Origin: an uncultured Bacilli bacterium
GTDB taxonomy: Bacteria; Bacillota_I; Bacilli_A; RF39; UBA660
Direction of reading: 5' to 3'
NCBI GenBank assembly: GCA_934162265.1
Contig: CAKPHZ010000003.1
Location: 2,852-66,851 of the forward strand
Length of the DNA stretch: 64,000 nt
The first letter of the stretch is position 1, and each line of letters begins with the position of its first letter. Below the pieces are notes generated by a model, which was not told the DNA's origin, made no database searches, and saw only the letters and a list, made by a program, of their open reading frames with translations. The translations under genes and the position numbers were made by a program. This document shows, piece after piece, positions 12,514 to 40,010 of the stretch.

Positions 12514-12515
12514 TT
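12494..12515. repeat. attL (tRNA 3' end copy)
   Basis: GACTCCCTTCAGCTGCTCCATT. Nineteen contiguous nt are identical to 19660-19678. Confidence 0.75.
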
Positions 12516-12554
12516 ATTGGTTATACCACGTAATTTTACGTGTTATAATATAAA

Positions 12555-13526
12555 TTAATCTTTAAATGGGTGGATTCTAAGATTAAATTTATACAACATA
12601 GTACTAACGAGGTTTGACCTCAAAGAATTAAGAGTTGACAAGACTCTTTTTTCTTGGCTTAAATCCGTATGGGTATATACATTCAATGTAATAGACGGGT
12701 TACTATGCCCTAATCTTCGGGAAATCTCGTTAATAATGATGCCATTATGAAGTAGTAATGTAGCATGACTATGCCTAAACTGATGTAGCGTTATAGGTCT
12801 TAAATTTGCCTTCTGACAGGCTTTTAACTTATAACGGTTAATCGTTGTAGGTGCTAGTGGTTTCATGCCACCAAATATAAAGTAATCATAATCTAATTGG
12901 TGATACAAGTTGTTATAATATTTTTTTAACTTTAGCAAGTCATTTTTTAAAAATTTATCTATTTTAATTTTACGAACTGATGAACTTGATTTAGGTGTAC
13001 CCACTTCACGCTTACCGTGTTCACTTATCGTTTTAGTAATACAAATGTAATCTCCTTGTAAGTCACTAAATTTCAATGCCATTGCTTCACCTGGTCTAGT
13101 GCCAGTAAAAAACATAAGATTAAAAAATTGTTTATATATATTGTTATCAAGATTTTTTATAAAAAGATTAAATTCTTTTAAATTATAAAAATCTTTTTTT
13201 GATGGTTCATATTTTTTCTTAAAATTGCCAACTTTGGAAATAATAGTCTTATCAAAATTGTAAAATAATGAACAAAACTCAAAAAATGAACACAAAATGT
13301 AATACAACGAAGAATTATAACTATTACTGTAATTAAAAGATAGTATATAATCTTGCCATGATAGAATTGTACTAGTTGTAATGTCATCTAAATTATAATC
13401 TTTAAAAAATGGGTGGATTCTAAAGTTAAATTTATATAACATCGTATCAAAAGTTTGTTTTTTATAGTGCTTTAAACTATAGATTTTAAAATTTTCATAA
13501 GCTTCTTTGAAACTCATATTCCTCAC
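12555..13526 (-). CDS. int: Tyrosine recombinase / phage integrase
   Basis: Catalytic signature residues are present: ..TGTRPGEAMAL.., HQFRHSHATLLL and GHSNPSITLNVYTH. It lies adjacent to the tRNA. Confidence 0.85.
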   Translation of the reverse strand: MRNMSFKEAYENFKIYSLKHYKKQTFDTMLYKFNFRIHPFFKDYNLDDITTSTILSWQDYILSFNYSNSYNSSLYYILCSFFEFCSLFYNFDKTIISKVGNFKKKYEPSKKDFYNLKEFNLFIKNLDNNIYKQFFNLMFFTGTRPGEAMALKFSDLQGDYICITKTISEHGKREVGTPKSSSSVRKIKIDKFLKNDLLKLKKYYNNLYHQLDYDYFIFGGMKPLAPTTINRYKLKACQKANLRPITLHQFRHSHATLLLHNGIIINEISRRLGHSNPSITLNVYTHTDLSQEKRVLSTLNSLRSNLVSTMLYKFNLRIHPFKD

Positions 13527-22199: not shown

Positions 22200-22268
22200 A
22201 AAGTCTTTTTTTATTAATACTTCTTAATGATTGATTAGAAGTATAAGTTACATTATACGCCCCTCTCA

Positions 22269-22301
22269 GAACTGTGCGTGCAACTTTCCCACACACAGCT
22301 C
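22269..22301 (-). ncRNA. Group II intron domain V-like hairpin (probable intron 3' remnant)
   Basis: The minus strand reads GAGCTGTGTGTGGGAAAGTTGCACGCACAGTTC. It has a 10-bp basal stem GAGCTGTGTG/CGCACAGTTC with the AGC triad, a CA bulge and a GAAA-containing apical loop. It is a GC-rich island in AT-rich spacer, and no RT ORF is adjacent. Confidence 0.35.
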
Positions 22302-22489
22302 TTAGTAATATAGCATCTATTTATCAAATATCATAGATCAGGCTGTTGACAATACCAAAAGGTATTGACTAAATAATAACTATTATTATAATATGAATTA
22401 ATTTGAATGGATTATTTATTGTAAGAAAGCATCATTACACAACTTTTACGATACTCCTAAGAAATGATATTTTTTGTTTATTTAACTTT

Positions 22490-27708: not shown

Positions 27709-27792
27709 TATATTTTATAAAGAATTCTTAATTCTTTATAATTGAAAAGTATATTTATTTTTAACTTTTTTTCTTTTATTATAAATGAACTA

Positions 27793-27820
27793 ACGTTATT
27801 TTGGATGATTACATATGATA
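27793..27820 (+). promoter_or_regulatory. SigK-like (mother-cell late) promoter candidate upstream of the collagen-like gene
   Basis: AC (27793-27794), a 17-nt spacer, then CATATGATA (27812-27820, fitting CATAnnnTA), ~20 nt before the RBS AAAGGAG. A chance match is quite possible in AT-rich DNA. Confidence 0.25.
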
Positions 27821-27840
27821 TGATAGAAAGGAGATTTTAT

Positions 27841-28222
27841 ATGGGTTGTTTTGATAAAGCAATAAAAAAAATTCAGGAAGATAATTGTAAAACTAGATAT
27901 ATTTGTTGTATTGGACCTACTGGGCCTACTGGGCCTGCTGGTGGTGTAATAGGACCTACTGGGCCGACTGGACCTCAAGGAGAAAGAGGCTTGCAAGGTT
28001 TAATTGGACCTACCGGAGCTCAAGGTATTCAAGGTATTCAAGGTGTTCCTGGACCGACTGGAGCAACTGGACCTCAAGGAGTTCAAGGTATCCAAGGTAT
28101 TCAAGGAAATATAGGCCCTACTGGACCGACTGGACCTACCGGACCTACCGGACCGACTGGACCTCAAGGTGAGGCTGGTGCGCAAGGTATTGCTGGAGCA
28201 ATTGGTCCGACTGGACCTACTG
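27841..28222 (+). CDS. BclA-like collagen-repeat protein, 5' segment of a gene split by the serine-recombinase element
   Basis: RBS AAAGGAG plus ATG at 27841. The product [23 protein letters not shown] is followed by GPT/GxY triplets. The collagen frame is lost exactly at 28222 (..[22 protein letters not shown] stop). Confidence 0.75.
28210..28222. repeat. attL core of the serine-recombinase element
   Basis: ACTGGACCTACTG, identical to 39060-39072 and in the same codon phase. Confidence 0.7.
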
Positions 28223-28252
28223 CCCGATGTAATAAATCATCTATATATATTT

Positions 28253-30295
28253 TTAAATGGTAAAGTTCCACATTATTTTAATATCCCTTAAATTTGTTGT
28301 TTCATCATAGTTCCCTATGAGAATTTTATCAATAAAATCTTCAACAATTTCAATAGATAATTCTTTTATATGTCTGTACTTTTTAAAGATATTTTTTTTA
28401 GTTTTTACTGTTTCTTTTGTTGCTAGTGTAGATGATATTTCTTTCTTCACTATTTTTTGTCGTTCTTCTAACTTTTCGTTATCATCTTTATACTTATTCA
28501 TTAATATTAAAAACTCTTTTTCTGGAAGTATCCCATTTGTACGATCTTCATATAGCTTTTGAAAATATGTACTTTTAACTTGTAATTCCTTATTAATACT
28601 TTGTAATTCTTTTTCTAATGAATTTAATTTATCTTTGTATAAATCTTGTTCTATTACTTCGTTTTGCATTTCTTTAAGATCATCTTCTTCATAAAATTTC
28701 TTTAACACTTCATTCATTTTTTCTAATATAAATTGCTGTAGCCCGTCTTCTCTAATAGAAATTTTATTATTACAATTAGACCAGTTTGTCTTTTTATCTT
28801 TACAACATAAATATCCAGTACCGTCAGACCTACGAGAACTTGTTTTAGTAAATCTTTGATTACAATTAGAACAATATACTTTATTACATAGTGGGTGTAC
28901 TGTACCACCTTTGCAACTTCTAGCAGTATTTTCTAATCTTTTTTGAACTGTGTACCATATATCTTTAGCAATGATTGGCTCGTGTGTATTATCCTTTCTA
29001 ATTCTTGTTTCACCATCATTCCATATCACTGTGTGATTTTTGTAGCTAACTGTTGTTGATTTGAATTGTACCATATTACCTATATAAACTTCATCAGTAA
29101 GTAATGTTCTAATAGTAGAACTAGACCACTTAAACTTTTTTCTTATATTATGAATAAAGTCTGATTTTTTTATTTCATCTGCCCCCTTACCACAGATACT
29201 TATATAATAATCAACACGATCTCTGTTTTCTTTTAGAGTAATTTCAAACTGATAATTAATAGTGTGGGTACGATCAAGTTCTTTGGTATATGAAATAATC
29301 ACTTTAGCTGTCTTTGGTAAACAATCATTTTCATTTAATAAAATACAATCATCTATATTAAAGTTATTAATATCAATATTATCATTTTCACTATAATATA
29401 TTTTTGTTCTATTATTAGTGTATTTCTTTAATACAATATCACATTTATTATTAAAGTTTTTCATATCAGTAGTTATGTAATTAAAACTTACTAAATCTTT
29501 TAAGATATATTCTTCTTTATTAGTAAAACTTACATCTAACATATAAGTACCAGTTTTCTCAATATATCCATAATTTACATAATCCTTAATTACTGGTATT
29601 TTTAATTTACTACCATTAAGTAATTTGTATTCATAAGGACTTAATATTTTATCTTCATTTAATCTTCTTGCGATTTTATCAAGTCCAGTTCCTAACAAAT
29701 ACTCATCATAAATTCTTTTAATAACTAAAGAAGATATAGGATCAATTATTAAATGATTTTTATTTTCTGGATCTTTCATATAACCATAAGTCGCAAAACT
29801 TGAAGTAAGTTGACCGTCTTTTCTTTTTGACTTTAATGTTTCACGAATATTTAAAGATGTATCTTCTAAATACCACTCGTCCGTTAATCCTATAATTTGA
29901 CTTGTCTTTTTAGTTTCTTTTCTAGCATTATCAATTCTATCAACTACTGTTATAAATCTTACATTCCATTCGTGAAATAAGTTATGAACGTACTTTTCTA
30001 CAAGTTCCATATCACGAGCAAATCTAGCTTGCGTTTTGCATAAAACAATATCAACATTACCATTTTTACATTCTTCAATCATTCGGTTAAAATCAGGCCT
30101 TGTAGCATCAGATCCAGACCAATCATCATCATTATAAACACCAACAACTTCCCAGCCTTGTTCTTCAGTATAATCCCTTAACATTATTTCTTGATTTTTG
30201 ATACTTTGTGATAATTCTTCTTTTGATAGTTTGTTTTTATCTTCATCTGATAATCTTAAATATAACACCGTTCTAAAAGAATGTTTATTGTTCAT
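28253..30295 (-). CDS. Large serine recombinase (SpoIVCA / phage-integrase type)
   Basis: 680 aa. Has the resolvase N-domain with [10 protein letters not shown] (catalytic Ser), a recombinase domain, a Cys-rich zinc ribbon ([11 protein letters not shown]...CCKDK) and a C-terminal coiled coil. Confidence 0.9.
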
Positions 30296-30471: not shown

Positions 30472-30651
30472 AATTCCCCCCCCTTAATATAAATAAAAAC
30501 TACAATTAATAGTTCCTAATTTAACTTATGAAATAAAATTAAATTTGATAACTAAATTAAAAATAAATATAATGTGCTAATGATTATTATAATGTAAATA
30601 ATATATAAAAGATTATAATTTTATGCTAAAATAATGATGAGGTTGATTACA

Positions 30652-31146
30652 ATGGAAGAAATATTAGTAGATGAAAATGGTTATAAACAATTCTTTGAAG
30701 AATTAAAAAGGCTGGAAGATTTAAGTCGCTCTAATTCAGCACTAGGTAGTGAAGTATATAAAGATGCTGTCGGTGATGGCTGGCACGATAATTTTGCTTT
30801 TGAAGAATCAATGAGGGAAAGCAGAGCGATAGCAAAAAGAATTGACGATTTATTATCAAAAAAGCAATACTTAAAAATCGTTGATGATAAGGATAAAAAG
30901 GAAAATTTAGTTAATATTGGTGATAAGGTTAGTATTAATATAAAATATTCTGATGATGTTATTGAAACAGAAGTAATAACATTAACAGGAAATTATATTC
31001 CCAATACTACTAATGAAATAAATGAAATATCTTTAAACAGTCCATTAGGAAAGGCATTGTTTAAAGCAAAAATTGGGACATCAACATCTTACTTTGTTGG
31101 AAATTCAGAGATATTTATAACTATTTTGGAAAAACTTAACAATTAA
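30652..31146 (+). CDS. GreA/GreB-family protein, paralog 1
   Basis: N-terminal coiled coil with the tip GDGWHDNFAFEESMRE. The C-terminal FKBP-like domain ISLNSPLGKALFKAKIGT parallels GreA ISVNSPIARGLIGK. Confidence 0.65.
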   Translation: MEEILVDENGYKQFFEELKRLEDLSRSNSALGSEVYKDAVGDGWHDNFAFEESMRESRAIAKRIDDLLSKKQYLKIVDDKDKKENLVNIGDKVSINIKYSDDVIETEVITLTGNYIPNTTNEINEISLNSPLGKALFKAKIGTSTSYFVGNSEIFITILEKLNN

Positions 31147-31273: not shown

Positions 31274-31807
31274 ATGGAAAATATGGAGCCAATCTATTTA
31301 GACCAAGACGGCTATAATGAATATCTAAAAAAAATTGAAGAGTTGAAAAAAGCAATTCAAGCAAACAATATGGGAAGAAAAGAAGCATTTGATGCTGGGG
31401 CTGGTGATGGCTGGGATTCTCCAGAGTTTGAAGAAATAGAAAGAACCAATATGAGATTAAATGGTGAATTACGTAATATGTACGAATCACTAAATAGAAT
31501 TGTTATCATTGAAAAACATAACGATCAAGAAATAGTTGATATTGGTGATGTTATTGTAGCGGATATGATTTTCTCTCCAGATGATATGGAAGAAATGACA
31601 TTTAAGCTAGTTGGTGCAAGTGGATATTTCAATGCTGAAATTCAAGAAATTTCAATAAATAGCCCATTAGGAAATGCTGTTTATAAAAAGAAAATTGGAG
31701 ATACTTGTTCTTATTCAGTAAATAACAGAAATTTTTCAGTTTTACTAAAACATAAAATGGATTTAACAAAAGAAAATGGTGCCCCAGTAAAAAAATTAAA
31801 AAAATAA
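31274..31807 (+). CDS. GreA/GreB-family protein, paralog 2
   Basis: Tip GDGWDSPEFEEIERT and C-terminal ISINSPLGNAVYKKKIGD. The RBS GGAAGGTG precedes the ATG at 31274. Confidence 0.65.
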   Translation: MENMEPIYLDQDGYNEYLKKIEELKKAIQANNMGRKEAFDAGAGDGWDSPEFEEIERTNMRLNGELRNMYESLNRIVIIEKHNDQEIVDIGDVIVADMIFSPDDMEEMTFKLVGASGYFNAEIQEISINSPLGNAVYKKKIGDTCSYSVNNRNFSVLLKHKMDLTKENGAPVKKLKK

Positions 31808-31826: not shown

Positions 31827-32393
31827 ATGAGTAAAGTTAGCAATACTTTAACAATGTTAAGATTGTTAGAGAGTGGTAAAAAGTATTCAGTGAAAGAGTT
31901 AGCAGAAAAATTGGAAGTTTCGCCAAGAATGATAAAATCATATAAAGAAGAATTAGAAAAATGTGGAATATATATTGATACTATTCTTGGCAGATATGGT
32001 GGTTATGTGTATCATAGAAAACATAATTACAATATATCTTTTGATTATTTAGATGTTGATGCAATAGAAAGTGTTATATATAAATTAGATCTTAAAGAAC
32101 AACAAAAATTAAACATTACACTAGAAAAAATAAGATCAATAGTTATTTATTCAGCAGACGAAAAAAGAAATATTAAAATTGATAAAGAAGATTTGCAGAA
32201 AAAATATAATATTATTTCAAGAGCAATCCAAGAACAAAATATATTAACCTTTAAATTTCACAACAAAAAGAGACGATTTCAACCCTTTTCATTCACATAC
32301 TATAAAGACTTTATTTATATTACTGGTTATTCAATAGATGAAAATGATATTAAAACCCTAAATTTAAGTGGAATTGATGATTTAAAAATGTGA
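31827..32393 (+). CDS. HTH-WYL domain transcriptional regulator
   Basis: N-terminal wHTH LTMLRLLESGKKYSVKELAEKLEVSPRMIKSYKEELEKCGIYI and a C-terminal WYL-like segment ILTFKFHNKKRRFQPFSFTYYKDFIYITGYS. Confidence 0.6.
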   Translation: MSKVSNTLTMLRLLESGKKYSVKELAEKLEVSPRMIKSYKEELEKCGIYIDTILGRYGGYVYHRKHNYNISFDYLDVDAIESVIYKLDLKEQQKLNITLEKIRSIVIYSADEKRNIKIDKEDLQKKYNIISRAIQEQNILTFKFHNKKRRFQPFSFTYYKDFIYITGYSIDENDIKTLNLSGIDDLKM

Positions 32394-32421
32394 TTTTGTA
32401 AAAAAAAGTCACATTTTTTTA
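32384..32421 (+). terminator. Rho-independent terminator after the WYL regulator
   Basis: AAAATGTGA ... TCACATTTT stem followed by a T-run. Confidence 0.45.
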
Positions 32422-32510
32422 ATGGTACGATATATCGCACCTATAACTGTTATAATCTTTCTTGAAAGGAAAGTTCCTCCTATGTTAATTTGCTGGGACA
32501 AGGTAGTAAG

Positions 32511-33188
32511 ATGAATAATTTATTTGTTTCTCTATTATATCTTATAATTTCATTTTCTGCAACTTTGGTGATATATAAAAGATTTGGAAAATTTGGATTA
32601 TATAGTTGGATGTGTTTGTTGGTTGTTATCTGTAATATTCAAACGATTAAACTATCAGAAATATTTGGATTAACAATTTCATTAGGAAATATATCATACG
32701 GAGCTTTGTTTCTTACAACTGATATTATAAGTGAAAAATACGGTAGAAATTCAGCAACAGAAGCAACGAATTTAAGTTTTGTTTTTATGATATTATTTAC
32801 TATTTTAATGTATCTATTTTTGCAATACACACCGTGTAATTCTGATTTTTCACAAAATGCTTTTGAAACAATATTTAGTTTTATTCCACGTATAACATTA
32901 GGAAGTTTAACCGCATATTGTTTTAGTCAACGCTGTGATGCCTACTTATATGAAAAGTTAAAAAAGAAATATAATAAAGTCTGGATAAGTAATAATGTCA
33001 GCACAATAATTAGCCAAGTATTAGATACTACTATATTTGTTTTAATTGCCTTTGTAGGAACAATGAAACTTAATGAAATTATATCTTTAATGATTACTAT
33101 GATAATTTTTAAGTGGATCATAGCAATATTAGATACACCATTTATGATAATAACAACAAAAATAAAAAATAATAAGGATTTGGAGTGA
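32511..33188 (+). CDS. VUT-family (YhhQ/DUF165) transporter, queuosine-precursor (preQ0/preQ1) transporter type
   Basis: About 6 TM. The conserved stretches ISYGALFLTTDIISEKYG, RITLGSLTAYCFSQRCDAYLYEKLK and STIISQVLDTTIFVLIAF are present. An extended -10 TGTTATAAT lies at 32445-32453. Confidence 0.7.
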   Translation: MNNLFVSLLYLIISFSATLVIYKRFGKFGLYSWMCLLVVICNIQTIKLSEIFGLTISLGNISYGALFLTTDIISEKYGRNSATEATNLSFVFMILFTILMYLFLQYTPCNSDFSQNAFETIFSFIPRITLGSLTAYCFSQRCDAYLYEKLKKKYNKVWISNNVSTIISQVLDTTIFVLIAFVGTMKLNEIISLMITMIIFKWIIAILDTPFMIITTKIKNNKDLE

Positions 33189-33194
33189 TTAATT

Positions 33195-33743
33195 ATGAAA
33201 AAATGTTTATTAAATGAAGACCAAAAAACATTAAAGTCAAATAACAAGATCGTAAAATTTGACTACGAGCATTATATTGACGCTTGTAAAGTTATGGCTG
33301 AAGAAATTAAAAAAAATTACAACTTAGATGAAGATAATATCGAATTAATAGGTATGGCTAGAGGTGGTTTACCTATGTTAGTTACATTATCACATTTATT
33401 AGGAATAAGAAAAGTATCAATGATTCAAACACAGATGAGTAATTCAGATAATTGCCACGATTACGGTAAATTTAGATATATGAGTGATAATATAGATAAT
33501 TCTAAAACAAAATGTATATTATTTGAAGACATAATTTATAAAGGAACAACTACGAATGGTGTTATCGATATATTAAAACAAAGAGGAAAAGAAGTTATTG
33601 GTGTATATTCTTTAATAATTGATAAAGGCTTCAAAGAAATTGAAATACCAAATAATGATGTAGATATTAAATATGCTTATGAAATAACAGAAGATGATTG
33701 GGTTTACTTTTTCTGGGAAACAGATTTAAGAGAAATAAAATAA
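33195..33743 (+). CDS. Xanthine-guanine phosphoribosyltransferase (Gpt)-like PRTase
   Basis: LIGMARGGLPMLVTLSHLLGIRKV parallels E. coli Gpt [24 protein letters not shown]. The PRPP loop CILFEDIIYKGTTT and the C-terminal DDWVYFFWE (Gpt DTWIEQPWD) also match. Confidence 0.7.
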   Translation: MKKCLLNEDQKTLKSNNKIVKFDYEHYIDACKVMAEEIKKNYNLDEDNIELIGMARGGLPMLVTLSHLLGIRKVSMIQTQMSNSDNCHDYGKFRYMSDNIDNSKTKCILFEDIIYKGTTTNGVIDILKQRGKEVIGVYSLIIDKGFKEIEIPNNDVDIKYAYEITEDDWVYFFWETDLREIK

Positions 33744-33770
33744 TAATTTAACATTTGGGAGGTGTTTATA

Positions 33771-34382
33771 ATGATTGATACAAGAAATAATCCTATTGTA
33801 ATTTCTGGCCCATCAGGTAGTGGGAAATCGGAACTTATAGAATATATCGAAAAGGAATATCCAACTTTTTTGGAAGCCACTGGAATAACAACTAGAGCTA
33901 AAAGAGAAATTGAAGTTGGAAGAATGTATTTTGTTAGTAAAGCAGAATTTGAAAATTTAATTTCAACAGATGGTTTAATAGAATATTGTATTTATAATAA
34001 TAATTATTATGGAGTACCTAAAAGCGAATTTGAAAAATTGAAAGAATATCATTTAATGTTTAATGTTGGCTATTCATCAGCAAAGGAAATTAAGAAGATG
34101 TATGAAGATACAACTATGATTTATCTTATGCCACCTACAAAAGAAGAATTGCTACGTAGATTAGGAGATCGTGGGGAGGAAAGATATTTACTAGGTATTC
34201 AAGAAACTATGAATTATGCCTTAAAATATGATTTTTTATTGTTATCATTGACTAATGATATGAAAACAACAACAGATGACTTTATGGATATTGTAAATCA
34301 AAAGGAAGAATCAAAACAAAAAAAATTAGTACTAGCTAAAAACAAAGATTTTATAACTAACTTTTATAAAGGAAGGCGCTAA
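33771..34382 (+). CDS. Guanylate kinase family protein
   Basis: P-loop IVISGPSGSGKSEL, GITTRAKREIEVGRMYFVSKAEFE, NNNYYGVP and ..PPTKEELLRRLGDRG. Confidence 0.8.
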   Translation: MIDTRNNPIVISGPSGSGKSELIEYIEKEYPTFLEATGITTRAKREIEVGRMYFVSKAEFENLISTDGLIEYCIYNNNYYGVPKSEFEKLKEYHLMFNVGYSSAKEIKKMYEDTTMIYLMPPTKEELLRRLGDRGEERYLLGIQETMNYALKYDFLLLSLTNDMKTTTDDFMDIVNQKEESKQKKLVLAKNKDFITNFYKGRR

Positions 34383-34384
34383 AA

Positions 34385-35371
34385 ATGATTTATGAATTGA
34401 ATTTAGATGGCAAAATAGAAGTTAGTAAAATTAAAAAGTTTTTAGCAGATAACTCTGATTCCGATTATATGCAAAGTATTGAATGGAATATTATTAGAAA
34501 TGAAAAAACAAAATATTTTATATACTATGTTGAAAATGAAGAAATAATATGGAGTTGTAATTTGCTAGAGAAAGAGAAAAATAATGTTAAATATTTATAT
34601 GCACCACGAGGACCTGTATTAAAAAATTCTAATTTTGATTTAATAAATTTATTCTTAAAAAATATAAAAGAATGGCTATCAATAAAAAAATACACAACAC
34701 TTGTAATTAATCCATATATAAATGAAATAGATTTAAAAAAGATTTCAAGTGAATACAATTATAGGATTACACAAAATAATGATTATAGTAATTTGCTTGA
34801 TTCTTGTAAATTAGCAATTATGGATATAATATTTAATGAAGAAGAACTTATAAAAAAACTACCAAGTAAGTTTAGGCAAAATACAAGAAGATCATATCGT
34901 AAGGAATTAACAAGTAAAATTTCAAAAGAAGTAGATTTAGATAATTTCTACAAACTATATATTCAAACATCAGAAAGACATAAATTCAAGTCACATACTA
35001 TTGAATATTTCAAAAAACTTATATCAACTTATAATGATAACCTAATTTTTTTAGAAGTTTGGTATAACAATATGCCTCTAGCAATGAGTATCGATATTAT
35101 TTATAATAATAAATTAATATATTTATACGGAGTTAGTTCAACTGAAAATAGAAATTTATTAGGAATGTATAATATGCAATGGGAAGCTATTAAGTATTGT
35201 ATTAATAACAAAATACCGAAATATGATTTTGGCGGAGTATTCTGTGAAGAAAATGATATAGAGAATAAGGATTATGGGTTGTATAATTTTAAAAAAGGAT
35301 ATTGTTATAATGGATTTATTGATATTGTTCCAGATATAACTTTTACTTTTGGAGGTAATAAAAATGATTAA
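34385..35371 (+). CDS. FemAB/FemX-family aminoacyl-tRNA-dependent transferase
   Basis: 328 aa. YLYAPRGPV, LPSKFRQNTRRSYRK, ERHKFKSHTIEYFKKL and YDFGGV...GLYNFKKGY are collinear with Weissella FemX. Confidence 0.75.
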   Translation: MIYELNLDGKIEVSKIKKFLADNSDSDYMQSIEWNIIRNEKTKYFIYYVENEEIIWSCNLLEKEKNNVKYLYAPRGPVLKNSNFDLINLFLKNIKEWLSIKKYTTLVINPYINEIDLKKISSEYNYRITQNNDYSNLLDSCKLAIMDIIFNEEELIKKLPSKFRQNTRRSYRKELTSKISKEVDLDNFYKLYIQTSERHKFKSHTIEYFKKLISTYNDNLIFLEVWYNNMPLAMSIDIIYNNKLIYLYGVSSTENRNLLGMYNMQWEAIKYCINNKIPKYDFGGVFCEENDIENKDYGLYNFKKGYCYNGFIDIVPDITFTFGGNKND

Positions 35372-36659
35372 TGTAGTATTTGAAGGATCAACTGGTGCAG
35401 GAAAAACAACAATCATAAAAAAAATAAAAAAGATATACGATAAAAAATATAAAGTCGGAATAACAAATAACATAGATAAAAGTTCACCACTATATAAAGT
35501 TATTAAAGCAATGTTTGATGATAACGCATTAGTATCATTAAAAGAAAATTTTAACACATTAAGATGTGAGACGTTAGTACAAGCAGCAGATTATTTGTTT
35601 TTAAGAGAAAAATTATATAGTGAAAATAATGATATAAATTTATTTGATAGAAATTATTGTTCTGTATATTCGTATCAATCTGTATTATTAGAAAACAATA
35701 TAAATAATTCACAAGAGTTTATGAATAATGTACTCTCTTGTATGAAGTCTGGTGAAAGAAAAATTGATTTACTGATATACTTTGATATAAATTTAAAAAC
35801 ATCTTTAAAACGTTCACAAGAAAGAGATAATAGAAAATTTACAAAGCAAGAAAAAGAAACATTTAAAAAATTTAATGATAAATTAAAAGATTTTATTAGA
35901 TACAATAATAGTGAATATAATCTTTTGGTTATTGAAAACAATGATACAGAAGAAGAAATAATCAACAAAATAACGAAAAAAATTAACGAAATAATAGAAG
36001 ATAAAAAGAAAACAGAAGATGATAAATGGTATGAATTATACAAGATAGATATAGAAGAATTTGATAAACCTGATGATTATATTGAGTATAAACTTAAATA
36101 TAAGAAAAAATTTATTAATAAAGTGATTCAATATGCTAAGAACAAAAAAGTAATTGAAATGGGTTGCGGTACTGGATTAATGGCGGGATATTTACAAAAG
36201 TTAGGATTAGATGTTATTGCACTTGATTTAAGTCAAGCAGTTTTAAATTACGCTTGCGAAATAGCAAAACAATCAAATATTATATCTCCTTGTAAATACG
36301 AACAAGGTGATATACTTAATTTAAAATATAAACCAAATACTTTTGATGTATCATACAGTAATGGTGTTTTAGAACATTTTACTGATGAAGAAATAATTGA
36401 AATTTTAAAGCAACAAATGAATATTTCTAAATATGTTATTTTTGGAATACCAAGCACATATTTTAATATGAATGAAAAAATGCTAGGTAATGAACGTGGA
36501 CTAACATTAAAAGAATGGAAATCTCTTATTAATAAAGCTGGTGGAAAATTAGTAGAACAAACAAGTTTTCACTACTACAAGTTATATAGAAGAATATTTG
36601 AAGTAAAAAAATGGTTAAAACCTAAAGCCTTTTGGTTATTTGTAATAGAAAAAAAGTAA
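35364..36659 (+). CDS. Fusion protein: thymidylate-kinase-like NMP kinase (N) and class I SAM methyltransferase (C)
   Basis: The N-terminus has VVFEGSTGAGKTT ... DRNYCSVYSYQ ... KRSQERDNR. The C-terminus has VIEMGCGTGLMAGYLQKLGLDVIALDLS and ..VSYSNGVLEHF. It overlaps the fem stop. Confidence 0.7.
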   Translation: MINVVFEGSTGAGKTTIIKKIKKIYDKKYKVGITNNIDKSSPLYKVIKAMFDDNALVSLKENFNTLRCETLVQAADYLFLREKLYSENNDINLFDRNYCSVYSYQSVLLENNINNSQEFMNNVLSCMKSGERKIDLLIYFDINLKTSLKRSQERDNRKFTKQEKETFKKFNDKLKDFIRYNNSEYNLLVIENNDTEEEIINKITKKINEIIEDKKKTEDDKWYELYKIDIEEFDKPDDYIEYKLKYKKKFINKVIQYAKNKKVIEMGCGTGLMAGYLQKLGLDVIALDLSQAVLNYACEIAKQSNIISPCKYEQGDILNLKYKPNTFDVSYSNGVLEHFTDEEIIEILKQQMNISKYVIFGIPSTYFNMNEKMLGNERGLTLKEWKSLINKAGGKLVEQTSFHYYKLYRRIFEVKKWLKPKAFWLFVIEKK

Positions 36660-36728
36660 AATTTAAAATGATAAAAACAAAAATTACCAATTACATGATA
36701 TAATTAAAGAAGGAGATGATATATATTT

Positions 36729-37289
36729 ATGAAAAAGATAACTTATGTGACTGGAAATTGGTCTAAAATAATGAGTGCTAAAAACATATTAGAGCCACTA
36801 GGAATTGAAGTTGACAATGTAAAAATGGAAACAACAGAAATTCAAGCTGATACTGTGGAAGAAGTTGCAATGCACTCTGCTAAAGAAGCTAGCGACAAAT
36901 TAAAATGTGCAGTATTAAAAAACGATACAGGATTATATGTAGAAGCATTAGGTGGCTTCCCAGGACCGTATACACATTATGTAGATGAAAGACTTGGTGA
37001 AGACGGATTATTAAAACTTCTTGAGGGAATTGATAATAGAAATGCTTGTTTTATGGAAGCATTTGCATATTGTGAATATGGAAAAGATCCTATTGTATTT
37101 AAATCTATTACCAAAGGAAAAATAGCAAAAGAAAAATCTGGTACGTATGGTTGGAGTTGGGATTTCATTTTCATACCAGACGGTTATGATAAGACAATGG
37201 GAAATTATCCAGATGAAGAAAGATGCCACGTTTGGAATACTGATGCTTATACAGAATTAGCTGATTACTTGAAAAACAAGGAAGATTAA
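36729..37289 (+). CDS. Ham1/ITPA-family non-canonical purine NTP pyrophosphatase
   Basis: ITYVTGNWSK, TEIQ, KNDTGLYVEALGGFPGPYT and GTYGWSWDFIFIP. Confidence 0.75.
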   Translation: MKKITYVTGNWSKIMSAKNILEPLGIEVDNVKMETTEIQADTVEEVAMHSAKEASDKLKCAVLKNDTGLYVEALGGFPGPYTHYVDERLGEDGLLKLLEGIDNRNACFMEAFAYCEYGKDPIVFKSITKGKIAKEKSGTYGWSWDFIFIPDGYDKTMGNYPDEERCHVWNTDAYTELADYLKNKED

Positions 37290-37293
37290 TAAA

Positions 37294-38289
37294 ATGGAAG
37301 AAATAGGTTGTCATTTTAAATTTGAAAAAATAATTGGTAATATTTATCACGATACAAATTTACTACTAAGTTCTGGTAGAAATTGTCTAAAATATATTAT
37401 TAATGAAAGAAATATAACAACATTATTTCTTCCATATTTCTTATGTGAAGCATTAAGTGAAGTTGCTGTATCTGAAAATGTAAAAATAGAATTTTACCAT
37501 ATTGATAATAATTTTATGCCATTAGATATAGATGAAAACAAACTAAATGACACAACCTATATTTACTTTGTAAATTATTATGGATTATTTAAAGATAATA
37601 TTCAAAAAATTATTGATAAATATAAATATGTAATAGTTGATAATACTCACGACTTTTTTTATAAAGACAATTACGGTGTAGATGTCATATACAATTATAG
37701 AAAATATTTTGGAGTTCCTGATGGAGCTTGTATAGTTAGTAATGATTTAGTTCCTAATTCTAAATACTCTAAAGGTAAAAGTTTAAATAAAGTGATTGAG
37801 ATGTTATCAAGAGATGAAACAGGACAATACTTCCATTATCTAACTTTTTTAGAAGCAGATAAACATTTTAGAAATGAAGATTTATGCTATATGTCTAATT
37901 TCACTGAAAACTATTTACGTGCAATAGATTATGAAACGGTACTAAAAAATAGATTAAGAAATTATGAGATGCTTTATGAATCACTAAAAAAATATAATCA
38001 ATTAGATTTATCTTCGAAACAGTTAACATATATGTATCCACTATTTGTATCTGACGGTAAATCTTTAAGAGCTTACTTAAAATCTAATAATATCTATTCA
38101 TTAAGATTATGGGCTAATATAAATTGGAATGGTGCTAATACAGATGAAATAACAAAAGCAGATAATATGGTTTTATTACCAATAGATCAACGTTATTCAG
38201 ATAATGAAATGGAATACATTGCAAGTGTAATTGATAAATATTATTCAAATAATCATAATAAAAGTAAAATTTTAGTCAAGGGGAAATAA
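37294..38289 (+). CDS. DegT/DnrJ/EryC1-like PLP-dependent enzyme (divergent)
   Basis: The order SGRNCLKYII ... VIVDNTHDFF ... YNYRKYFGVPDGACIV matches the SGTAAL / EDaA / SFxxxK-GG layout of sugar aminotransferases. The assignment is tentative. Confidence 0.45.
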   Translation: MEEIGCHFKFEKIIGNIYHDTNLLLSSGRNCLKYIINERNITTLFLPYFLCEALSEVAVSENVKIEFYHIDNNFMPLDIDENKLNDTTYIYFVNYYGLFKDNIQKIIDKYKYVIVDNTHDFFYKDNYGVDVIYNYRKYFGVPDGACIVSNDLVPNSKYSKGKSLNKVIEMLSRDETGQYFHYLTFLEADKHFRNEDLCYMSNFTENYLRAIDYETVLKNRLRNYEMLYESLKKYNQLDLSSKQLTYMYPLFVSDGKSLRAYLKSNNIYSLRLWANINWNGANTDEITKADNMVLLPIDQRYSDNEMEYIASVIDKYYSNNHNKSKILVKGK

Positions 38290-38310
38290 TGAAAGAAGAA
38301 AACATTTTAC

Positions 38311-38967
38311 TTGGTTTCAAGTAATGAAGAAGTCAATAGTGTTTTAAACAATATGAAATCAAACTCTAAAGTATATTTGAAATTGATAACAGGATTACAA
38401 TTACTAGGTAATTTTGAAGGAAAAACAGAAATTGGTTTCTACGATAAAATAGATGATGATAAAGAGAAAAAAATAAGACTTTGGTGTACTGATTCTGATG
38501 ATAATCTATTTGTATTTTATGGATATTCTTCAGATAGAACTGATTTACTAAAAGTCACAAAAGAGACAAACGAAGAAACGTTAGAATATGATTTAACTTT
38601 AGCAAAAAAGTTTACTCTTAACTCTAATAATACAAATTTTACTAGATCTAATCAAATTTATGGCTTTAAATTTGGAAGATTAATAACTGGCAGTAATAAC
38701 TTTTATAGTTTGTTTTTAAGAGATGACATTGGTTATCAAATACAAGGAGATTTGAATACAAGCATAGTAAAAGAATTATTAAGTGAATTAAATAAATTAG
38801 AAAACTTGCCAAAGCTCACTGATTACTTAAATATCTTTGAAAGAATTTTAAGTGTTAAAGATATACATTTCTCTATATTATCAATATCAGCATTTAAAGA
38901 TTTTGAAAACATTGGCTCTTTTCAAATAAATGATAAAAAGTCAAAGAGCTTAACATTAAAAAAATAA
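38311..38967 (+). CDS. Hypothetical protein, last gene of the cargo operon (start uncertain: TTG 38311 or ATG 38353)
   Basis: 218-aa ORF. No motif recognised. Confidence 0.45.
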
Positions 38968-38994
38968 AACAAGTCAACTGGCTTGTTTTTGTTT
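38967..38994 (+). terminator. Rho-independent terminator of the cargo operon
   Basis: AAACAAGTC-AACT-GGCTTGTTT followed by a T-rich tail. Confidence 0.55.
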
Positions 38995-39059
38995 GCATTA
39001 ATAAGAGAATATGCTTGAAATTACAATTAATTCTATTAGATGATTTATTTTATCGAGCA

Positions 39060-39072
39060 ACTGGACCTACTG
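39060..39072. repeat. attR core of the serine-recombinase element
   Basis: ACTGGACCTACTG, identical to 28210-28222. Confidence 0.7.
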
Positions 39073-39449
39073 GTCCTCAAGGTGAAGCTGGTGCGCAAGG
39101 TGTTGCTGGAGCAATTGGTCCGACTGGACCTACTGGTCCTCAAGGTGAGGCTGGTGCGCAAGGTGTTGCTGGAGCGATTGGTCCGACTGGACCTACTGGA
39201 CCTCAAGGTGAGGCTGGTGCGCAAGGTGTTGCTGGAGCGATTGGTCCGACTGGACCTACTGGGCCTCAAGGTGAGGCTGGTGCGCAAGGTGTTGCTGGAG
39301 CAATTGGTCCGACTGGACCTACTGGTCCTCAAGGTGAAGCTGGTGCGCAAGGTGTTGCTGGAGCGATTGGGCCGACTGGACCTACTGGACCTCAAGGTGA
39401 AGCTGGTGCGCAAGGTGTTGCTGGAGCAATTGGGCCAACTGGACCTACT
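39072..39449 (+). repeat. Tandem repeat, 6 x 63 bp (a seventh unit lies at 28159-28221)
   Basis: Exactly 378 bp of head-to-tail 63-bp units. Every inter-unit difference I checked is at a synonymous third position. Confidence 0.95.
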
Positions 39450-39485
39450 GCTACATTATTATATTTCTTCTTGTTTTTTATATAA
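39073..39485 (+). CDS. BclA-like collagen-repeat protein, 3' segment of the split gene
   Basis: Six perfect repeats of [21 protein letters not shown] are followed by the short hydrophobic tail [11 protein letters not shown]. There is no own start or RBS, and the upstream frame reads through element DNA. Confidence 0.7.
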
Positions 39486-40010
39486 TATACATGTTAAATC
39501 ATGTGAATAAATTATACCAATTGCTTGTAGGTAAGAATAAATAATAGTAGAACCAACAAATTTCATTCCACGTACTTTTAAGTCATTGCTAATATTATCT
39601 GATAATTCATTTGTTGTTTTTCCGACTTCACAAATAATTTTCCCCTTTGTAAATGTTTCTAGATAATGATAGAAGGTTCCATATTCTTTTTTGATTTCTA
39701 TAAATATTCTAGCATTATTAATACTTGCTCTTATTTTTAATTGATTACGAATAATTTTTTTGTTTTGTAATAATTCTTGTATCTTTTCTTCAGAGTAATT
39801 AGCAATCTTTTCTGCATTAAAATTATCGTAAGCTAATCTAAAATCATCTCTTTTATTTAAAATACACTCCCAAGAAAGTCCTGCTTGAAAAGACTCTAAA
39901 ATGAGCATTTCAAATAAATAATCATCATTTGTATTTAATCTTCCCCATTCATTATCATGATAGTCTATATATTTTTCGTTATTTAAATTACACCATTTAC
40001 ATCTTTGCAT
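39459..40010 (-). CDS. tag: DNA-3-methyladenine glycosylase I
   Basis: [36 protein letters not shown] and a C-terminal HhH-like region. Confidence 0.85.

What the first reader, a model, noticed from the sequence alone, without database searches (positions are those of the whole stretch)
32511..38967. Cargo operon: 7-deazaguanine-precursor transporter, Gpt-like PRTase, two NMP kinases, FemX-like transferase, methyltransferase, Ham1 and a PLP enzyme; candidate undescribed nucleotide-tailoring or defence system
Seen in sequence. Eight tightly packed co-directional genes run between an extended -10 promoter at 32445-32453 and a terminator at 38967-38994. By motif they are a VUT/YhhQ-type transporter, a PRTase collinear with E. 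coli Gpt, guanylate kinase, a FemAB/FemX aminoacyl-tRNA-dependent transferase, a TMK-like kinase fused to a SAM methyltransferase, a Ham1/ITPase, a DegT-like PLP enzyme and an unknown 218-aa protein. Established background: YhhQ-family proteins import preQ0/preQ1. A PRTase step coupling preQ0 to PRPP has been proposed in toyocamycin-type 7-deazapurine biosynthesis. Fem-type enzymes act on nucleotide-linked substrates and tailor peptidyl-nucleosides. Ham1 enzymes act on non-canonical purine NTPs. Inference: the set reads as import of a guanine-like or 7-deazaguanine base, conversion to NMP then NDP/NTP, then methylation, amination and aminoacylation, with Ham1 as editor or immunity. There is no TGT/DpdA-type base-exchange enzyme, no queCDE and no polymerase. 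It therefore does not match the known queuosine, Dpd or phage 7-deazaguanine DNA-modification clusters. Its location on a mobile element next to a WYL regulator fits either a nucleotide-based anti-phage function or synthesis of a modified nucleoside or nucleotide.
Basis: partly seen in the sequence, partly recalled or inferred. Interest (0 to 1): 0.85.

Follow-up and report, generated by a model that had tools for sequence, protein, structure and literature searches.

The report
Mobile operon tailoring an unusual nucleotide
An 11-kb mobile island in an uncultured gut bacterium carries a conserved, undescribed enzyme set that most likely turns an imported guanine-like base into a methylated, amino-acid-bearing nucleotide, and it travels with its own RNA-polymerase "proofreading" factors; what the product is for has not been shown.

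Summary
Eight tightly packed co-directional genes (32511-38967) encode a Vut_1/YhhQ-type transporter, a Gpt/Hpt-like PRTase, a guanylate-kinase-like kinase, a FemX-like aa-tRNA transferase, a TMK-like kinase fused to a SAM methyltransferase, a Ham1-like pyrophosphatase, a DegT-fold PLP enzyme (seen only by structure prediction) and a 218-aa protein with no fold match. The set keeps its gene order in about 45 gut-metagenome or MAG loci, down to 38% Fem identity. All genes are under purifying selection.

New here:
- The conserved core is Gre-like factor(s) + PRTase + kinase(s) + Fem + methyltransferase + Ham1. The transporter, WYL regulator, PLP enzyme and p218 are accessory.
- The PRTase, the kinase and Ham1 have each lost canonical purine-contact residues in every ortholog. 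This argues for a non-canonical, probably 7-substituted 7-deazaguanine-like, base.
- The island (about 28.2-39.06 kb, serine recombinase) splits a collagen-like gene.
- No match to known defence systems, phages or plasmids, and none in the literature searched.

Best reading: a salvage-fed pathway makes a tailored guanosine-analogue nucleotide that acts at RNA polymerase, with Ham1 and Gre factors as safeguards. The chemistry and the biological role (defence, antibiotic, modification or signal) are untested.

The parts
27742..28263 (+). 5' half of a collagen-like (GXY repeat) gene interrupted by the island (left insertion flank)
   Evidence: Translation shows [24 protein letters not shown] repeats that resume at 39015.
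28253..30295 (-). Large serine recombinase, the island's integrase
   Evidence: Resolvase + Recombinase + Zn_ribbon_recom on the identical contig. A 94-97% ortholog occupies the same position in L008, L023 and L024.
30634..31146 (+). Gre-like factor 1, tip motif GDGWHDNFAFEE
   Evidence: GreA_GreB (weak). Aligns over its full length with E. coli GreA and keeps both acidic tip residues. Syntenic in most loci.
31274..31807 (+). Gre-like factor 2, tip motif GDGWDSPEFEE
   Evidence: PF01272 E 1e-8, above the cutoff. NCBIfam GreA models cover residues 7-161 but score below their cutoffs. Alignment. The family has 229 clusters at 50% identity with E<=1e-10.
31827..32393 (+). HTH-WYL regulator
   Evidence: HTH_11 + WYL. 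PADLOC WYL model E 2e-18. Present in architecture A loci; absent from L015, L020 and L052.
32384..32418 (.). 10-bp perfect inverted repeat AAAAATGTGA / TCACATTTTT overlapping the WYL stop codon; a candidate operator or weak terminator
   Evidence: Read directly from the sequence. Function not tested.
32448..32456 (+). Extended -10 element TGtTATAAT
   Evidence: Sequence. This is only a consensus match.
32511..33188 (+). Vut_1/YhhQ-family transporter (accessory)
   Evidence: PF02592 E 4e-43. TIGR00697 scores 174.7 against a cutoff of 50.95. The E. coli-type model PRK11212 scores below its cutoff. Missing in L010, L011, L015 and L020.
33195..33743 (+). Atypical Gpt/Hpt-like type I phosphoribosyltransferase
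   Evidence: PF00156. The PRPP loop reads ILFEDIIYKGTTT, with Tyr/Phe in place of the catalytic Asp in all 10 orthologs. The C-terminus DDWVYFFWE is Gpt-like.
33771..34382 (+). Guanylate-kinase-like NMP kinase with a remodelled base pocket
   Evidence: PF00625. TIGR03263 scores 99.5 against a cutoff of 160.45. Yeast Guk1 S34 becomes G, S80 becomes V/M/I and D100 becomes G/S, while E69 is kept, in all orthologs.
34385..35371 (+). FemX-like aminoacyl-tRNA-dependent transferase
   Evidence: PF02388 E 1e-36. Profile against FemX_Wv gives E 2e-36, with the catalytic Lys305 equivalent kept (K303), K36 as R38 and R211 as H204.
35364..36659 (+). TMK/dNK-like P-loop kinase fused to a class I SAM methyltransferase
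   Evidence: Pfam. The two domains are separate 214-aa genes in L015, L052 and L053. The nearest solved relatives of the methyltransferase are phosphoethanolamine N-methyltransferases, E 4e-12.
36729..37289 (+). Atypical Ham1-like NTP pyrophosphatase
   Evidence: PF01725 E 4e-35. Closest solved structure is Mj0226, E 8e-36. The SHR motif is replaced by (V/I/L)W(N/S) and VED by KND in all orthologs. It has the lowest dN/dS in the island, 0.02-0.06.
37294..38289 (+). DegT/DnrJ/EryC1-fold PLP-type enzyme (accessory)
   Evidence: No HMM hit. AlphaFold pLDDT 90 and Foldseek E 2e-12 to sugar aminotransferases. Homologs at 38% identity lie in polysaccharide clusters next to DegT + ATP-grasp + GNAT genes.
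38311..38967 (+). 218-aa protein of unknown fold (accessory; membership doubtful)
   Evidence: No family or fold match. It has the highest dN/dS, 0.19-0.46. A homolog stands alone beside a UvrD-like helicase.
38966..38989 (+). Intrinsic terminator closing the operon
39015..39485 (+). 3' half of the interrupted collagen-like gene (right insertion flank). Similarity to islands in other genomic sites ends at about 39064.

Best explanation
The island carries a self-contained pathway that builds and tailors a non-canonical guanosine-type ribonucleotide from a salvaged base.

Proposed steps (none shown biochemically):
1. The Vut_1 transporter imports a 7-deazaguanine-type base (preQ1, preQ0 or queuine). 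Basis: family-level inference.
2. The Gpt-like PRTase joins the base to PRPP. The enzyme class is shown; the substrate is inferred.
3. The guanylate-kinase-like and TMK-like kinases raise the product to the di- and triphosphate level (inferred).
4. The methyltransferase methylates it, probably on an amine.
5. The FemX-like enzyme transfers an amino acid from aminoacyl-tRNA to an amine of the nucleotide. For a preQ1-type base, that would be the 7-aminomethyl group (inferred).
6. In some versions a DegT-fold PLP enzyme adds a further step.
7. The Ham1-like pyrophosphatase returns the analogue triphosphate to the monophosphate, either as a maturation step or as a safety valve.
8. The dedicated Gre-like cleavage factors deal with RNA polymerase that has taken up the analogue.

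I read the product as a transcription-directed toxic or inhibitory nucleotide used in conflict. An inducible anti-phage or anti-invader role is most likely, given the WYL regulator and the small recombinase island. Ham1 and the Gre factors would be the producer's self-protection.
For: - Enzyme classes.
- Tight synteny and purifying selection across about 45 loci.
- Three architectures share Fem + the Tyr-variant PRTase + Ham1 (in L053 the visible stretch shows an HD protein at that position). They swap the other parts: split TMK and methyltransferase, an HD-Ham1 fusion, PHP and inorganic pyrophosphatase nearby, or a radical SAM enzyme.
- Fem homologs at 38% identity or more are always in such operons. 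Those at 30-35% are not: one lies next to a Mur ligase, the other two in unrelated contexts.
- Three independent nucleotide-binding enzymes have lost canonical purine contacts in every ortholog:
  - PRTase: Asp to Tyr/Phe at the position of the residue that contacts N7 in Hpt/Gpt (own knowledge of HGPRT Asp137). The O6 Lys and the Gpt-like Trp platform are kept.
  - Kinase: S34G, S80V and D100G, with E69 kept.
  - Ham1: the SHR motif is lost.
- The recruited transporter passes the curated queuosine-precursor-transporter model.
- A 7-deazaguanine:PRPP transferase followed by a nucleotide hydrolase has precedent in TubE/TubG (PMC6112128).
- Fem keeps the catalytic Lys but not Arg211 of the UDP-MurNAc-pentapeptide site.
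- The Gre-like proteins align end to end with GreA and keep both acidic tip residues. They accompany the enzymes in architectures A and B, flank the operon on both sides in L020, and appear as a 501-aa fusion after Ham1 in L039.
- Mobility: the island splits a gene, and the same right end lies next to different flanks in other genomes.
Against: - There is no chemistry. The substrate, the order of steps and the product are all inferred.
- The transporter is absent from several versions, and no preQ1 riboswitch precedes it.
- A Ham1 that destroys the triphosphate sits awkwardly with a triphosphate effector.
- The Gre-like family (229 clusters at 50% identity) is far broader than the Fem family. 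It could therefore be mobile-element backbone rather than pathway.
- There is no PADLOC match. Neighbours in L028 are housekeeping genes, not a defence island. The WYL regulator is missing in L015, L020 and L052.
- No exporter or effector protein is evident.
- If the PLP enzyme is optional, the acceptor amine must come from the base itself. That fits preQ1 but is unproven.
Confidence: 0.45

Rival explanations
1. It is a biosynthetic gene cluster for a secreted peptidyl- or aminoacyl-nucleoside antibiotic aimed at competing bacteria. Ham1 and the Gre-like factors serve as self-resistance, and the Vut protein serves as importer of the precursor or as exporter.
For: - Fem-type aa-tRNA transferases in secondary metabolism (PacB, VlmA, DhpH/K, Orf11) all belong to antibiotic pathways (PMC12945691).
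- A PRPP-dependent 7-deazapurine assembly followed by a phosphohydrolase is the tubercidin logic.
- Variant loci add phosphoesterases (HD, PHP), which suggests a dephosphorylated end product.
- The logic parallels puromycin biosynthesis: aminotransferase, NTP pyrophosphatase, methyltransferases and an amino-acid ligase (own knowledge).
Against: - No recognisable exporter is present apart from a family known only for import.
- The cluster is very small and rides a recombinase-only island with a WYL regulator.
- The hosts are reduced-genome gut Bacilli, which are not known as producers.
- No dehydrogenase is present to create a keto group for the aminotransferase.
Confidence: 0.2
2. It is a nucleic-acid modification route through the nucleotide pool. 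The tailored 7-deazaguanine NTP (or dNTP) is incorporated into the element's or host's RNA or DNA, and the Gre-like factors help RNA polymerase cope.
For: - There are kinases up to the NTP level.
- 7-deaza-GTP analogues are accepted by polymerases (own knowledge).
- Phage 7-deazaguanine DNA modifications include N-methyl and N-formyl preQ1 (own knowledge).
- Mom shows that tRNA-dependent aminoacyl transfer onto a nucleobase exists (PMC13219725).
Against: - The island has no polymerase, TGT/DpdA, dGTPase or reductase.
- Ham1 would remove the NTP.
- The system is absent from IMG/VR and from phage records.
Confidence: 0.12
3. It is a signalling pair. The product is an alarmone-like guanine nucleotide that acts on RNA polymerase together with the Gre-like secondary-channel factor, in the manner of ppGpp with DksA. 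This would give the element control over host transcription.
For: - The nucleotide enzymes persist alongside secondary-channel-type factors.
- The Gre-like tip has an invariant Trp that canonical GreA lacks.
- Ham1 could act as the signal-degrading enzyme.
Against: - Both acidic tip residues needed for transcript cleavage are retained, which fits a working cleavage factor better than a ligand co-receptor.
- Seven biosynthetic genes are many for a signal.
- No sensor is present in the minimal versions.
Confidence: 0.08
4. It is an ordinary function: purine salvage (Hpt, Gmk, Tmk, RdgB) for an auxotrophic reduced genome, clustered by chance with a cell-wall FemX and a sugar aminotransferase.
For: - The closest characterised relatives of each protein are housekeeping enzymes.
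- The hosts have peptidoglycan genes nearby in some loci.
- p331 relatives lie in polysaccharide clusters.
Against: - All fall below equivalog cutoffs.
- Base-contact residues are replaced in the PRTase, the kinase and Ham1.
- Fem lacks Arg211 and is never next to mur genes at 38% identity or more.
- The set moves as a unit on a recombinase island.
Confidence: 0.07

Closest known systems
Tubercidin/toyocamycin 7-deazapurine nucleoside pathways (TubE/ToyH PRTase, TubG Nudix hydrolase)
   Same: A free 7-deazaguanine-type base is coupled to PRPP by a purine-type PRTase. The nucleotide is then tailored and finally hydrolysed (PMC6112128).
   Different: - Here there are no GTP cyclohydrolase or queCDE genes. 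The base would be salvaged through a Vut_1 transporter.
- There are no GMP reductase or AdSS/AdSL genes.
- The operon adds two kinases, a methyltransferase, a tRNA-dependent Fem enzyme, Ham1 in place of Nudix, and Gre-like factors.
- The hosts are Firmicutes and the set is mobile, not a Streptomyces cluster.
Fem-type aa-tRNA transferases of natural-product pathways (PacB, VlmA, DhpH-C/DhpK, Orf11) and peptidoglycan FemX
   Same: Double-GNAT FemAB fold with a conserved catalytic Lys (PMC12945691).
   Different: - This clade is found only in PRTase/Ham1 operons.
- Arg211 of the UDP-MurNAc-pentapeptide site is His.
- A free nucleotide as acceptor would be new for the family.
Puromycin pathway (Pur10, Pur4, Pur7, Pur3, Pur6, Pur5/DmpM), from own knowledge
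   Same: A purine NTP is tailored by a DegT-type aminotransferase. An NTP pyrophosphatase removes a polymerase-poisoning intermediate. Methyltransferases act, and an amino acid is joined to an amine.
   Different: - No NAD-dependent dehydrogenase is present.
- The aminotransferase is optional.
- The amino acid comes from aa-tRNA rather than an ATP-dependent ligase.
- The base appears guanine-like, not adenine.
- No sequence relationship was tested.
Prokaryotic viperins with associated nucleotide kinases (pVips), from own knowledge
   Same: A defence logic that converts a nucleotide into a polymerase-directed analogue, often with kinases. One variant locus here carries a radical SAM enzyme with weak MoaA and viperin hits.
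   Different: - The window has no radical SAM enzyme.
- There is no PADLOC hit.
- The Fem, PRTase, methyltransferase, Ham1 and Gre factors have no counterpart in pVip systems.
Phage Mu Mom
   Same: A GNAT-superfamily enzyme transfers glycine from Gly-tRNA onto a nucleobase amine (PMC13219725).
   Different: Mom is a single-domain enzyme that acts on dsDNA after replication. No homology to it was shown here.
Kongming KomB and housekeeping RdgB/ITPA (Ham1 family)
   Same: Same fold and catalytic core. KomB (8zsg) appears among the PDB hits, E 1e-16.
   Different: The Ham1 here lacks the SHR motif and has KND in place of VED. There are no KomA or KomC partners.

Membership tests
Vut_1 / YhhQ queuosine-precursor transporters | Match to PF02592 and to the curated equivalog TIGR00697 above their cutoffs | tested here: met
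   PF02592 scores 147.9 bits against a cutoff of 27.2. TIGR00697 scores 174.7 against 50.95.
Vut_1 / YhhQ queuosine-precursor transporters | Orthology to E. coli YhhQ (PRK11212 cutoff) | tested here: not met
   49.8 bits against a cutoff of 252.
Vut_1 / YhhQ queuosine-precursor transporters | Transport of preQ0, preQ1 or queuine | not testable with these tools
   Needs uptake assays. No preQ1 riboswitch lies upstream, but a riboswitch is not a defining feature.
6-oxopurine phosphoribosyltransferases (Hpt/Gpt) | PRPP-binding loop with an acidic pair, and a type I PRT fold | tested here: met
   PF00156 is above its cutoff. The loop reads LFEDII.KGTT.
6-oxopurine phosphoribosyltransferases (Hpt/Gpt) | Catalytic Asp after the acidic pair (EDIIDxG / DDLVDTG) | tested here: not met
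   Tyr (Phe in L013) in all 10 orthologs.
6-oxopurine phosphoribosyltransferases (Hpt/Gpt) | Equivalog score (TIGR01203, PRK09177) | tested here: not met
   35.9 against 150, and 22.9 against 138.
Guanylate kinase | P-loop, TTRxxR phosphate-binding motif, and the Pfam model | tested here: met
   PF00625 scores 72.9 against 25.2. Alignment.
Guanylate kinase | Guanine-contact residues (yeast S34, S80, D100) and the equivalog cutoff | tested here: not met
   S34 is G, S80 is V/M/I and D100 is G/S in all orthologs; only E69 is kept. TIGR03263 scores 99.5 against 160.45.
FemABX aa-tRNA transferases | FemAB double-GNAT domain and the catalytic Lys (FemX_Wv K305) | tested here: met
   PF02388 scores 127 bits. 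K303 is invariant and aligns to K305.
FemABX aa-tRNA transferases | Peptidoglycan-precursor acceptor (FemX equivalog score, Arg211, mur-gene neighbourhood) | tested here: not met
   NF047883 scores 100 against 500. R211 is replaced by an invariant His. Mur ligase neighbours appear only for homologs at about 30% identity.
Ham1/RdgB/ITPase | Ham1p_like domain | tested here: met
   PF01725 scores 121.7 against 22.5.
Ham1/RdgB/ITPase | SHR base-recognition motif and the equivalog cutoffs | tested here: not met
   SHR is replaced by (V/I/L)W(N/S). TIGR00042 scores 135.8 against 145.35, and PRK14821 scores 176.4 against 203.
DegT/DnrJ/EryC1 aminotransferases | Fold type I sugar-aminotransferase structure | tested here: met
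   Foldseek E 2e-12, prob 1.0, TM about 0.6, with a model at pLDDT 90.
DegT/DnrJ/EryC1 aminotransferases | Sequence-model membership and a PLP-binding Lys/Asp pair | tested here: inconclusive
   No PF01041 hit. Invariant D116 and K137 sit in plausible motifs, but no structural superposition of the active site was done.
Gre transcript-cleavage factors | Coiled-coil N-domain with two acidic tip residues, plus the GreA_GreB C-domain | tested here: met
   Full-length alignment to E. coli GreA, with equivalents of D41 and E44 present. PF01272 scores 35.5 against 26.9 for Gre-like 2 and is weak for Gre-like 1.
Gre transcript-cleavage factors | GreA/GreB equivalog score; binding to RNA polymerase and stimulation of cleavage | tested here: not met
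   The best NCBIfam hit scores 58.1 against 145. Biochemical activity is not testable here.
Known anti-phage defence systems (PADLOC-DB v2) | Significant match of the component proteins to a system's models | tested here: not met
   Only generic hits were found: WYL, a methyltransferase hit to mad2, and weak P-loop hits.
Dpd / phage 7-deazaguanine DNA-modification clusters and queuosine synthesis | A TGT/DpdA-type transglycosylase and/or queCDE(F) | tested here: not met
   None among the 12 island proteins. The rest of the genome was not examined.

The most novel reading that the evidence does not exclude
The operon would make the first known free nucleotide that is aminoacylated by a tRNA-dependent Fem enzyme: an N-methylated, aminoacyl 7-aminomethyl-7-deazaguanosine nucleotide. 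That molecule would work through RNA polymerase together with dedicated Trp-tipped Gre factors. It could be a chain-blocking analogue that only the producer's polymerase can excise, or an element-encoded alarmone. Either way this would be a new kind of nucleotide-based conflict system in gut Firmicutes.
Probability: 0.2. Interest if true: 0.9.

Novelty: new variant of a known kind. Interest (0 to 1): 0.7.

Why it matters
- If the chemistry is as inferred, 7-deazaguanine (queuosine-precursor) salvage would have a use outside tRNA and DNA base exchange.
- The acceptor range of Fem-type tRNA-dependent transferases would extend to nucleotides.
- Specialised Gre factors and a specialised Ham1 would be revealed as a two-layer safeguard against a self-made polymerase poison. 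That design principle is relevant to antiviral nucleotide analogues.
- The system is common in human and animal gut metagenomes but occurs only in uncultured lineages. It is therefore invisible to culture-based screens, and at about 8 kb it is small enough to synthesise and test.

Tried and rejected
1. Megablast of the island, and tblastn of Fem, the PRTase and both Gre-like proteins, against GenBank phages and PLSDB plasmids found no relatives. The only hits were about 25% identical staphylococcal Fem/Lif genes.
2. IMG/VR scans with a Fem profile and with both Gre tip motifs gave nothing. The element is not phage-borne.
3. PADLOC models match no known defence system.
4. Rfam finds no preQ1 or other riboswitch in or before the operon.
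5. Sequence searches of p331 and p218 against the PDB gave nothing. Only the fold search resolved p331. p218 stayed unassigned in both PDB and BFVD.
6. Five literature searches for the gene combination, for Fem plus anti-phage, for 7-deazaguanine plus PRTase or kinase, and for Gre plus chain terminators found no description of such a system. A 2026 preprint on 7-deazapurine genome mining mentions no Fem, Ham1, YhhQ or kinase.
7. A look-up for an empty insertion site, using the flanking Tag gene, returned only occupied sites.
8. By eye I read the 170-aa and 219-aa proteins of variant C as HAD-like and NDK-like. Pfam, NCBIfam and the PDB gave no support, so I drop both readings.
9. A thiopurine-type detoxification reading (PRTase, GMP kinase, methyltransferase, ITPase) was considered and rejected, because a detoxification operon would not carry the activating enzymes.
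10. A profile scan of IMG/VR with the Gre-like alignment failed for lack of a conserved stretch.

Full report
**What is there**

The window has about 25% G+C. The stretch 32490-38967 holds eight + strand ORFs with gaps of -8 to 69 nt. Gene calls on an identical metagenome contig give the likely starts: 32511, 33195, 33771, 34385, 35364, 36729, 37294 and 38311.

- Vut_1, which also passes the curated 'queuosine precursor transporter' model TIGR00697 (174.7 bits against a cutoff of 50.95).
- A type I phosphoribosyltransferase.
- A guanylate-kinase-like protein.
- A FemAB protein.
- A thymidylate-kinase-like domain fused to a class I SAM methyltransferase.
- A Ham1-like protein.

The seventh protein (331 aa) has no HMM or PDB sequence hit. 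It belongs to a family of more than 1,600 proteins. Its AlphaFold model (pLDDT 90) matches DegT/DnrJ/EryC1 sugar aminotransferases (Foldseek E 2e-12), and it has an invariant Asp116 and Lys137.

The eighth protein (218 aa) folds confidently (pLDDT 92) but matches nothing in PDB or BFVD.

A terminator at 38966-38989 closes the operon, and a TGnTATAAT element lies at 32448-32456. No riboswitch is present.

**Surroundings**

Upstream, on the same strand, lie two paralogous Gre-like genes (30634-31146 and 31274-31807) and an HTH-WYL regulator (31827-32393). A large serine recombinase lies on the other strand (28253-30295).

The block from about 28.23 to 39.06 kb interrupts a collagen-like GXY-repeat gene. 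Its two halves are at 27742-28263 and 39015-39485. In other genomes, similarity to the window stops about 100 bp after the terminator (about 39064), and the flanks differ from there on. The operon is therefore the only cargo of a roughly 10.8-kb recombinase island.

The rest of the window is chromosomal: a CCA-adding enzyme, a Pol IV-like protein, Tex and a tRNA-Gly.

**Is the gene set real and conserved?**

The Fem protein has about 90 relatives at 38% identity or more. Genome, metagenome and contig look-ups gave about 45 loci. All come from gut-type samples and from uncultured Bacilli, 'Tenericutes', Erysipelotrichaceae or Clostridium MAGs.

tblastn with the window proteins shows the same order wherever the contig is long enough. 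Pairwise dN/dS is 0.02-0.46 for all eleven island genes. Ham1 is lowest (0.02-0.06), then TMK-MT and the PRTase; p218 is highest.

**Three architectures exist**

- **A (the window):** Gre-like factor(s), usually WYL, usually Vut, then PRT-GK-Fem-TMK·MT-Ham1, often p331 and p218.
  - L020 lacks WYL, Vut, p331 and p218, and has a Gre-like gene on each side of the operon. It sits among polA, fpg and truB.
  - In L039 the gene after Ham1 encodes a 501-aa protein whose N-terminus is a Gre-type coiled coil with the tip GDNWHDN.
- **B (Fem 41-45% identical):** GK-Fem-PRT-TMK-MT-(HD-Ham1 fusion, or HD). L015 and L052 have a divergent Gre-like gene next to it. A PHP phosphoesterase, a second TMK-like gene or an inorganic pyrophosphatase lies nearby. 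L015 has another serine recombinase.
- **C (Fem 38% identical, in a spore-former):** unknown-Fem-unknown-radical SAM-PRT-Ham1. The radical SAM protein gives only weak hits to MoaA, viperin and other models.

Fem homologs at 30-35% identity are not in such operons: one lies next to a Mur ligase and the other two sit in unrelated contexts.

The persistent partnership is therefore Fem + this PRTase + Ham1 (or an HD protein at that position, as in L053), joined by kinases, a methyltransferase or radical SAM enzyme, phosphoesterases and Gre-like factors.

The following are accessory:
- Vut.
- WYL.
- p331. Relatives at 38% identity lie in polysaccharide clusters beside DegT, ATP-grasp and GNAT genes.
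- p218. A 49% homolog stands alone after a UvrD/PcrA helicase in more than 100 contigs.

**What the enzymes say about the substrate**

None of the nucleotide enzymes reaches its NCBIfam equivalog cutoff. Each has lost canonical base contacts in every ortholog examined.

- **PRTase.** It keeps the PRPP loop, the Lys that aligns with the O6-binding Lys of Hpt, and a Gpt-like C-terminal Trp platform. The Asp that follows the acidic pair (EDIIDxG in Hpt, DDLVDTG in Gpt) is Tyr or Phe. To my knowledge that Asp is the residue that contacts N7 of the purine.
- **Kinase.** It keeps the P-loop, TTRxxR and Glu69 (yeast numbering). It replaces Ser34, Ser80 and Asp100 with Gly, a hydrophobic residue and Gly/Ser.
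- **Ham1.** It is closest to archaeal Mj0226. It has (V/I/L)W(N/S) in place of the SHR motif, and KND in place of VED.

These three independent changes argue that the pathway handles a 6-oxopurine-like base altered around position 7. The one transporter family the operon has recruited is known only for 7-deazaguanine bases. A PRPP:7-carboxy-7-deazaguanine transferase followed by a nucleotide hydrolase is established in tubercidin biosynthesis (PMC6112128).

A preQ1-type base would also supply the primary amine that a Fem enzyme needs when p331 is absent. Three further observations fit this:
- Fem keeps the catalytic Lys of FemX_Wv but has His in place of Arg211 of the UDP-MurNAc-pentapeptide site.
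- Fem-type enzymes are already known to tailor nucleoside and other antibiotics (PMC12945691).
- The nearest solved relatives of the methyltransferase are phosphoethanolamine N-methyltransferases.

All of this is inference from sequence.

**The Gre-like factors**

Both align end to end with E. coli GreA and keep acidic residues at the positions of Asp41 and Glu44. They insert an invariant Trp at the tip: GDGWHDNFxFEE or GDGWDSPEFEE.

The family has 229 clusters (50% identity) at E<=1e-10 among 1.84 billion representatives. It is therefore much broader than the Fem clade. Its tip motifs are absent from IMG/VR.

Their recurrence in architectures A and B, on either side of the enzymes and even as a fusion, makes a functional link likely. 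A role as general mobile-element backbone is not excluded.

A pool-sanitising pyrophosphatase and a transcript-cleavage factor are the two known ways to keep a bad purine NTP out of RNA. Both are specialised here, which suggests that an intermediate or the product is a substrate or inhibitor of RNA polymerase.

**Most likely mechanism and rivals**

My best reading (0.45) is this. A salvaged 7-deazaguanine-type base is converted to a nucleotide, phosphorylated, methylated and aminoacylated, giving a polymerase-directed analogue. Ham1 and the Gre factors are safeguards. The system is used in conflict, probably inducibly, given the WYL regulator and the small island.

Rivals:
- A secreted nucleoside antibiotic (0.2).
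- Nucleic-acid modification through the NTP pool (0.12).
- An alarmone with a Gre-type co-factor (0.08).
- Ordinary salvage plus cell-wall genes (0.07).

Points against my reading:
- There is no chemistry.
- The transporter and WYL are optional.
- No exporter or effector is evident.
- There is no PADLOC hit.
- The neighbours in L028 are housekeeping genes.
- The Gre family is broad.

**Comparison with known systems and novelty**

The operon resembles 7-deazapurine nucleoside clusters, Fem-containing nucleoside-antibiotic pathways, the puromycin logic and viperin-type antiviral nucleotide synthesis. It is a member of none of them.
- It lacks queCDE and GTP cyclohydrolase.
- It lacks TGT/DpdA.
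- The window has no radical SAM enzyme.
- It has no dehydrogenase.
- It has no polymerase.

It has no relatives in phage or plasmid records. Five literature searches and one targeted paper check found no description of the combination.

I class it as a new variant of nucleotide-analogue biosynthetic clusters. There is a real chance (about 0.2) that it is a new kind of system, defined by tRNA-dependent aminoacylation of a free nucleotide coupled to dedicated Gre factors.

Interest is 0.7: it is conserved, mobile, compact and testable, but its function is unproven.

Noticed in passing
window 27742-28263 and 39015-39485: A collagen-like GXY-repeat gene, with 63-nt tandem units at 39060-39500, is split by the island. 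It is the integration target of the serine recombinase in this genome.
   Followed up: partly
window 22234-22303 (-): Rfam match to the group II intron catalytic domain model (43.4 bits against a gathering score of 40).
   Followed up: no
window 12439-13526: A tRNA-Gly(GCC) gene is followed directly by a tyrosine (phage-type) integrase on the opposite strand. This is probably a second integrated element.
   Followed up: no
window 32384-32418: A perfect 10-bp inverted repeat overlaps the stop codon of the WYL gene, just upstream of the operon promoter. It is a candidate operator or weak terminator.
   Followed up: no
L013 4870-6596: The gene after Ham1 is a leucyl-tRNA-synthetase-like protein with an editing domain and a NUDIX domain hit at residues 384-510. 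It could be a dedicated aa-tRNA supplier, or the host's LeuRS with an odd insertion.
   Followed up: no
L012 8903-9346: A D-aminoacyl-tRNA deacylase gene lies directly after the p331 ortholog. This may be coincidence, or a link to aa-tRNA use by Fem.
   Followed up: no
L056-L059 8001-8702: A 49% homolog of p218 sits alone after a UvrD/PcrA-type helicase, at the edge of an element that carries integrases, in more than 100 contigs.
   Followed up: partly
protein P0347: A 298-aa representative joins a stretch resembling the C-terminus of p218 to a Gre-like-2-type protein. This hints that p218-like and Gre-like genes are adjacent in another element.
   Followed up: no
L014 (CP091726.1, 1.46-Mb MAG chromosome): The operon copy gives split or partial hits for the PRTase, GK and Fem. 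It is either decaying or affected by assembly indels.
   Followed up: no
L016-L018 7627-11528: p331-family proteins at about 38% identity form a conserved DegT / ATP-grasp / p331-like / GNAT block inside capsule or O-antigen-type clusters. This is an uncharacterised PLP-fold family of more than 1,600 proteins with no Pfam model.
   Followed up: partly
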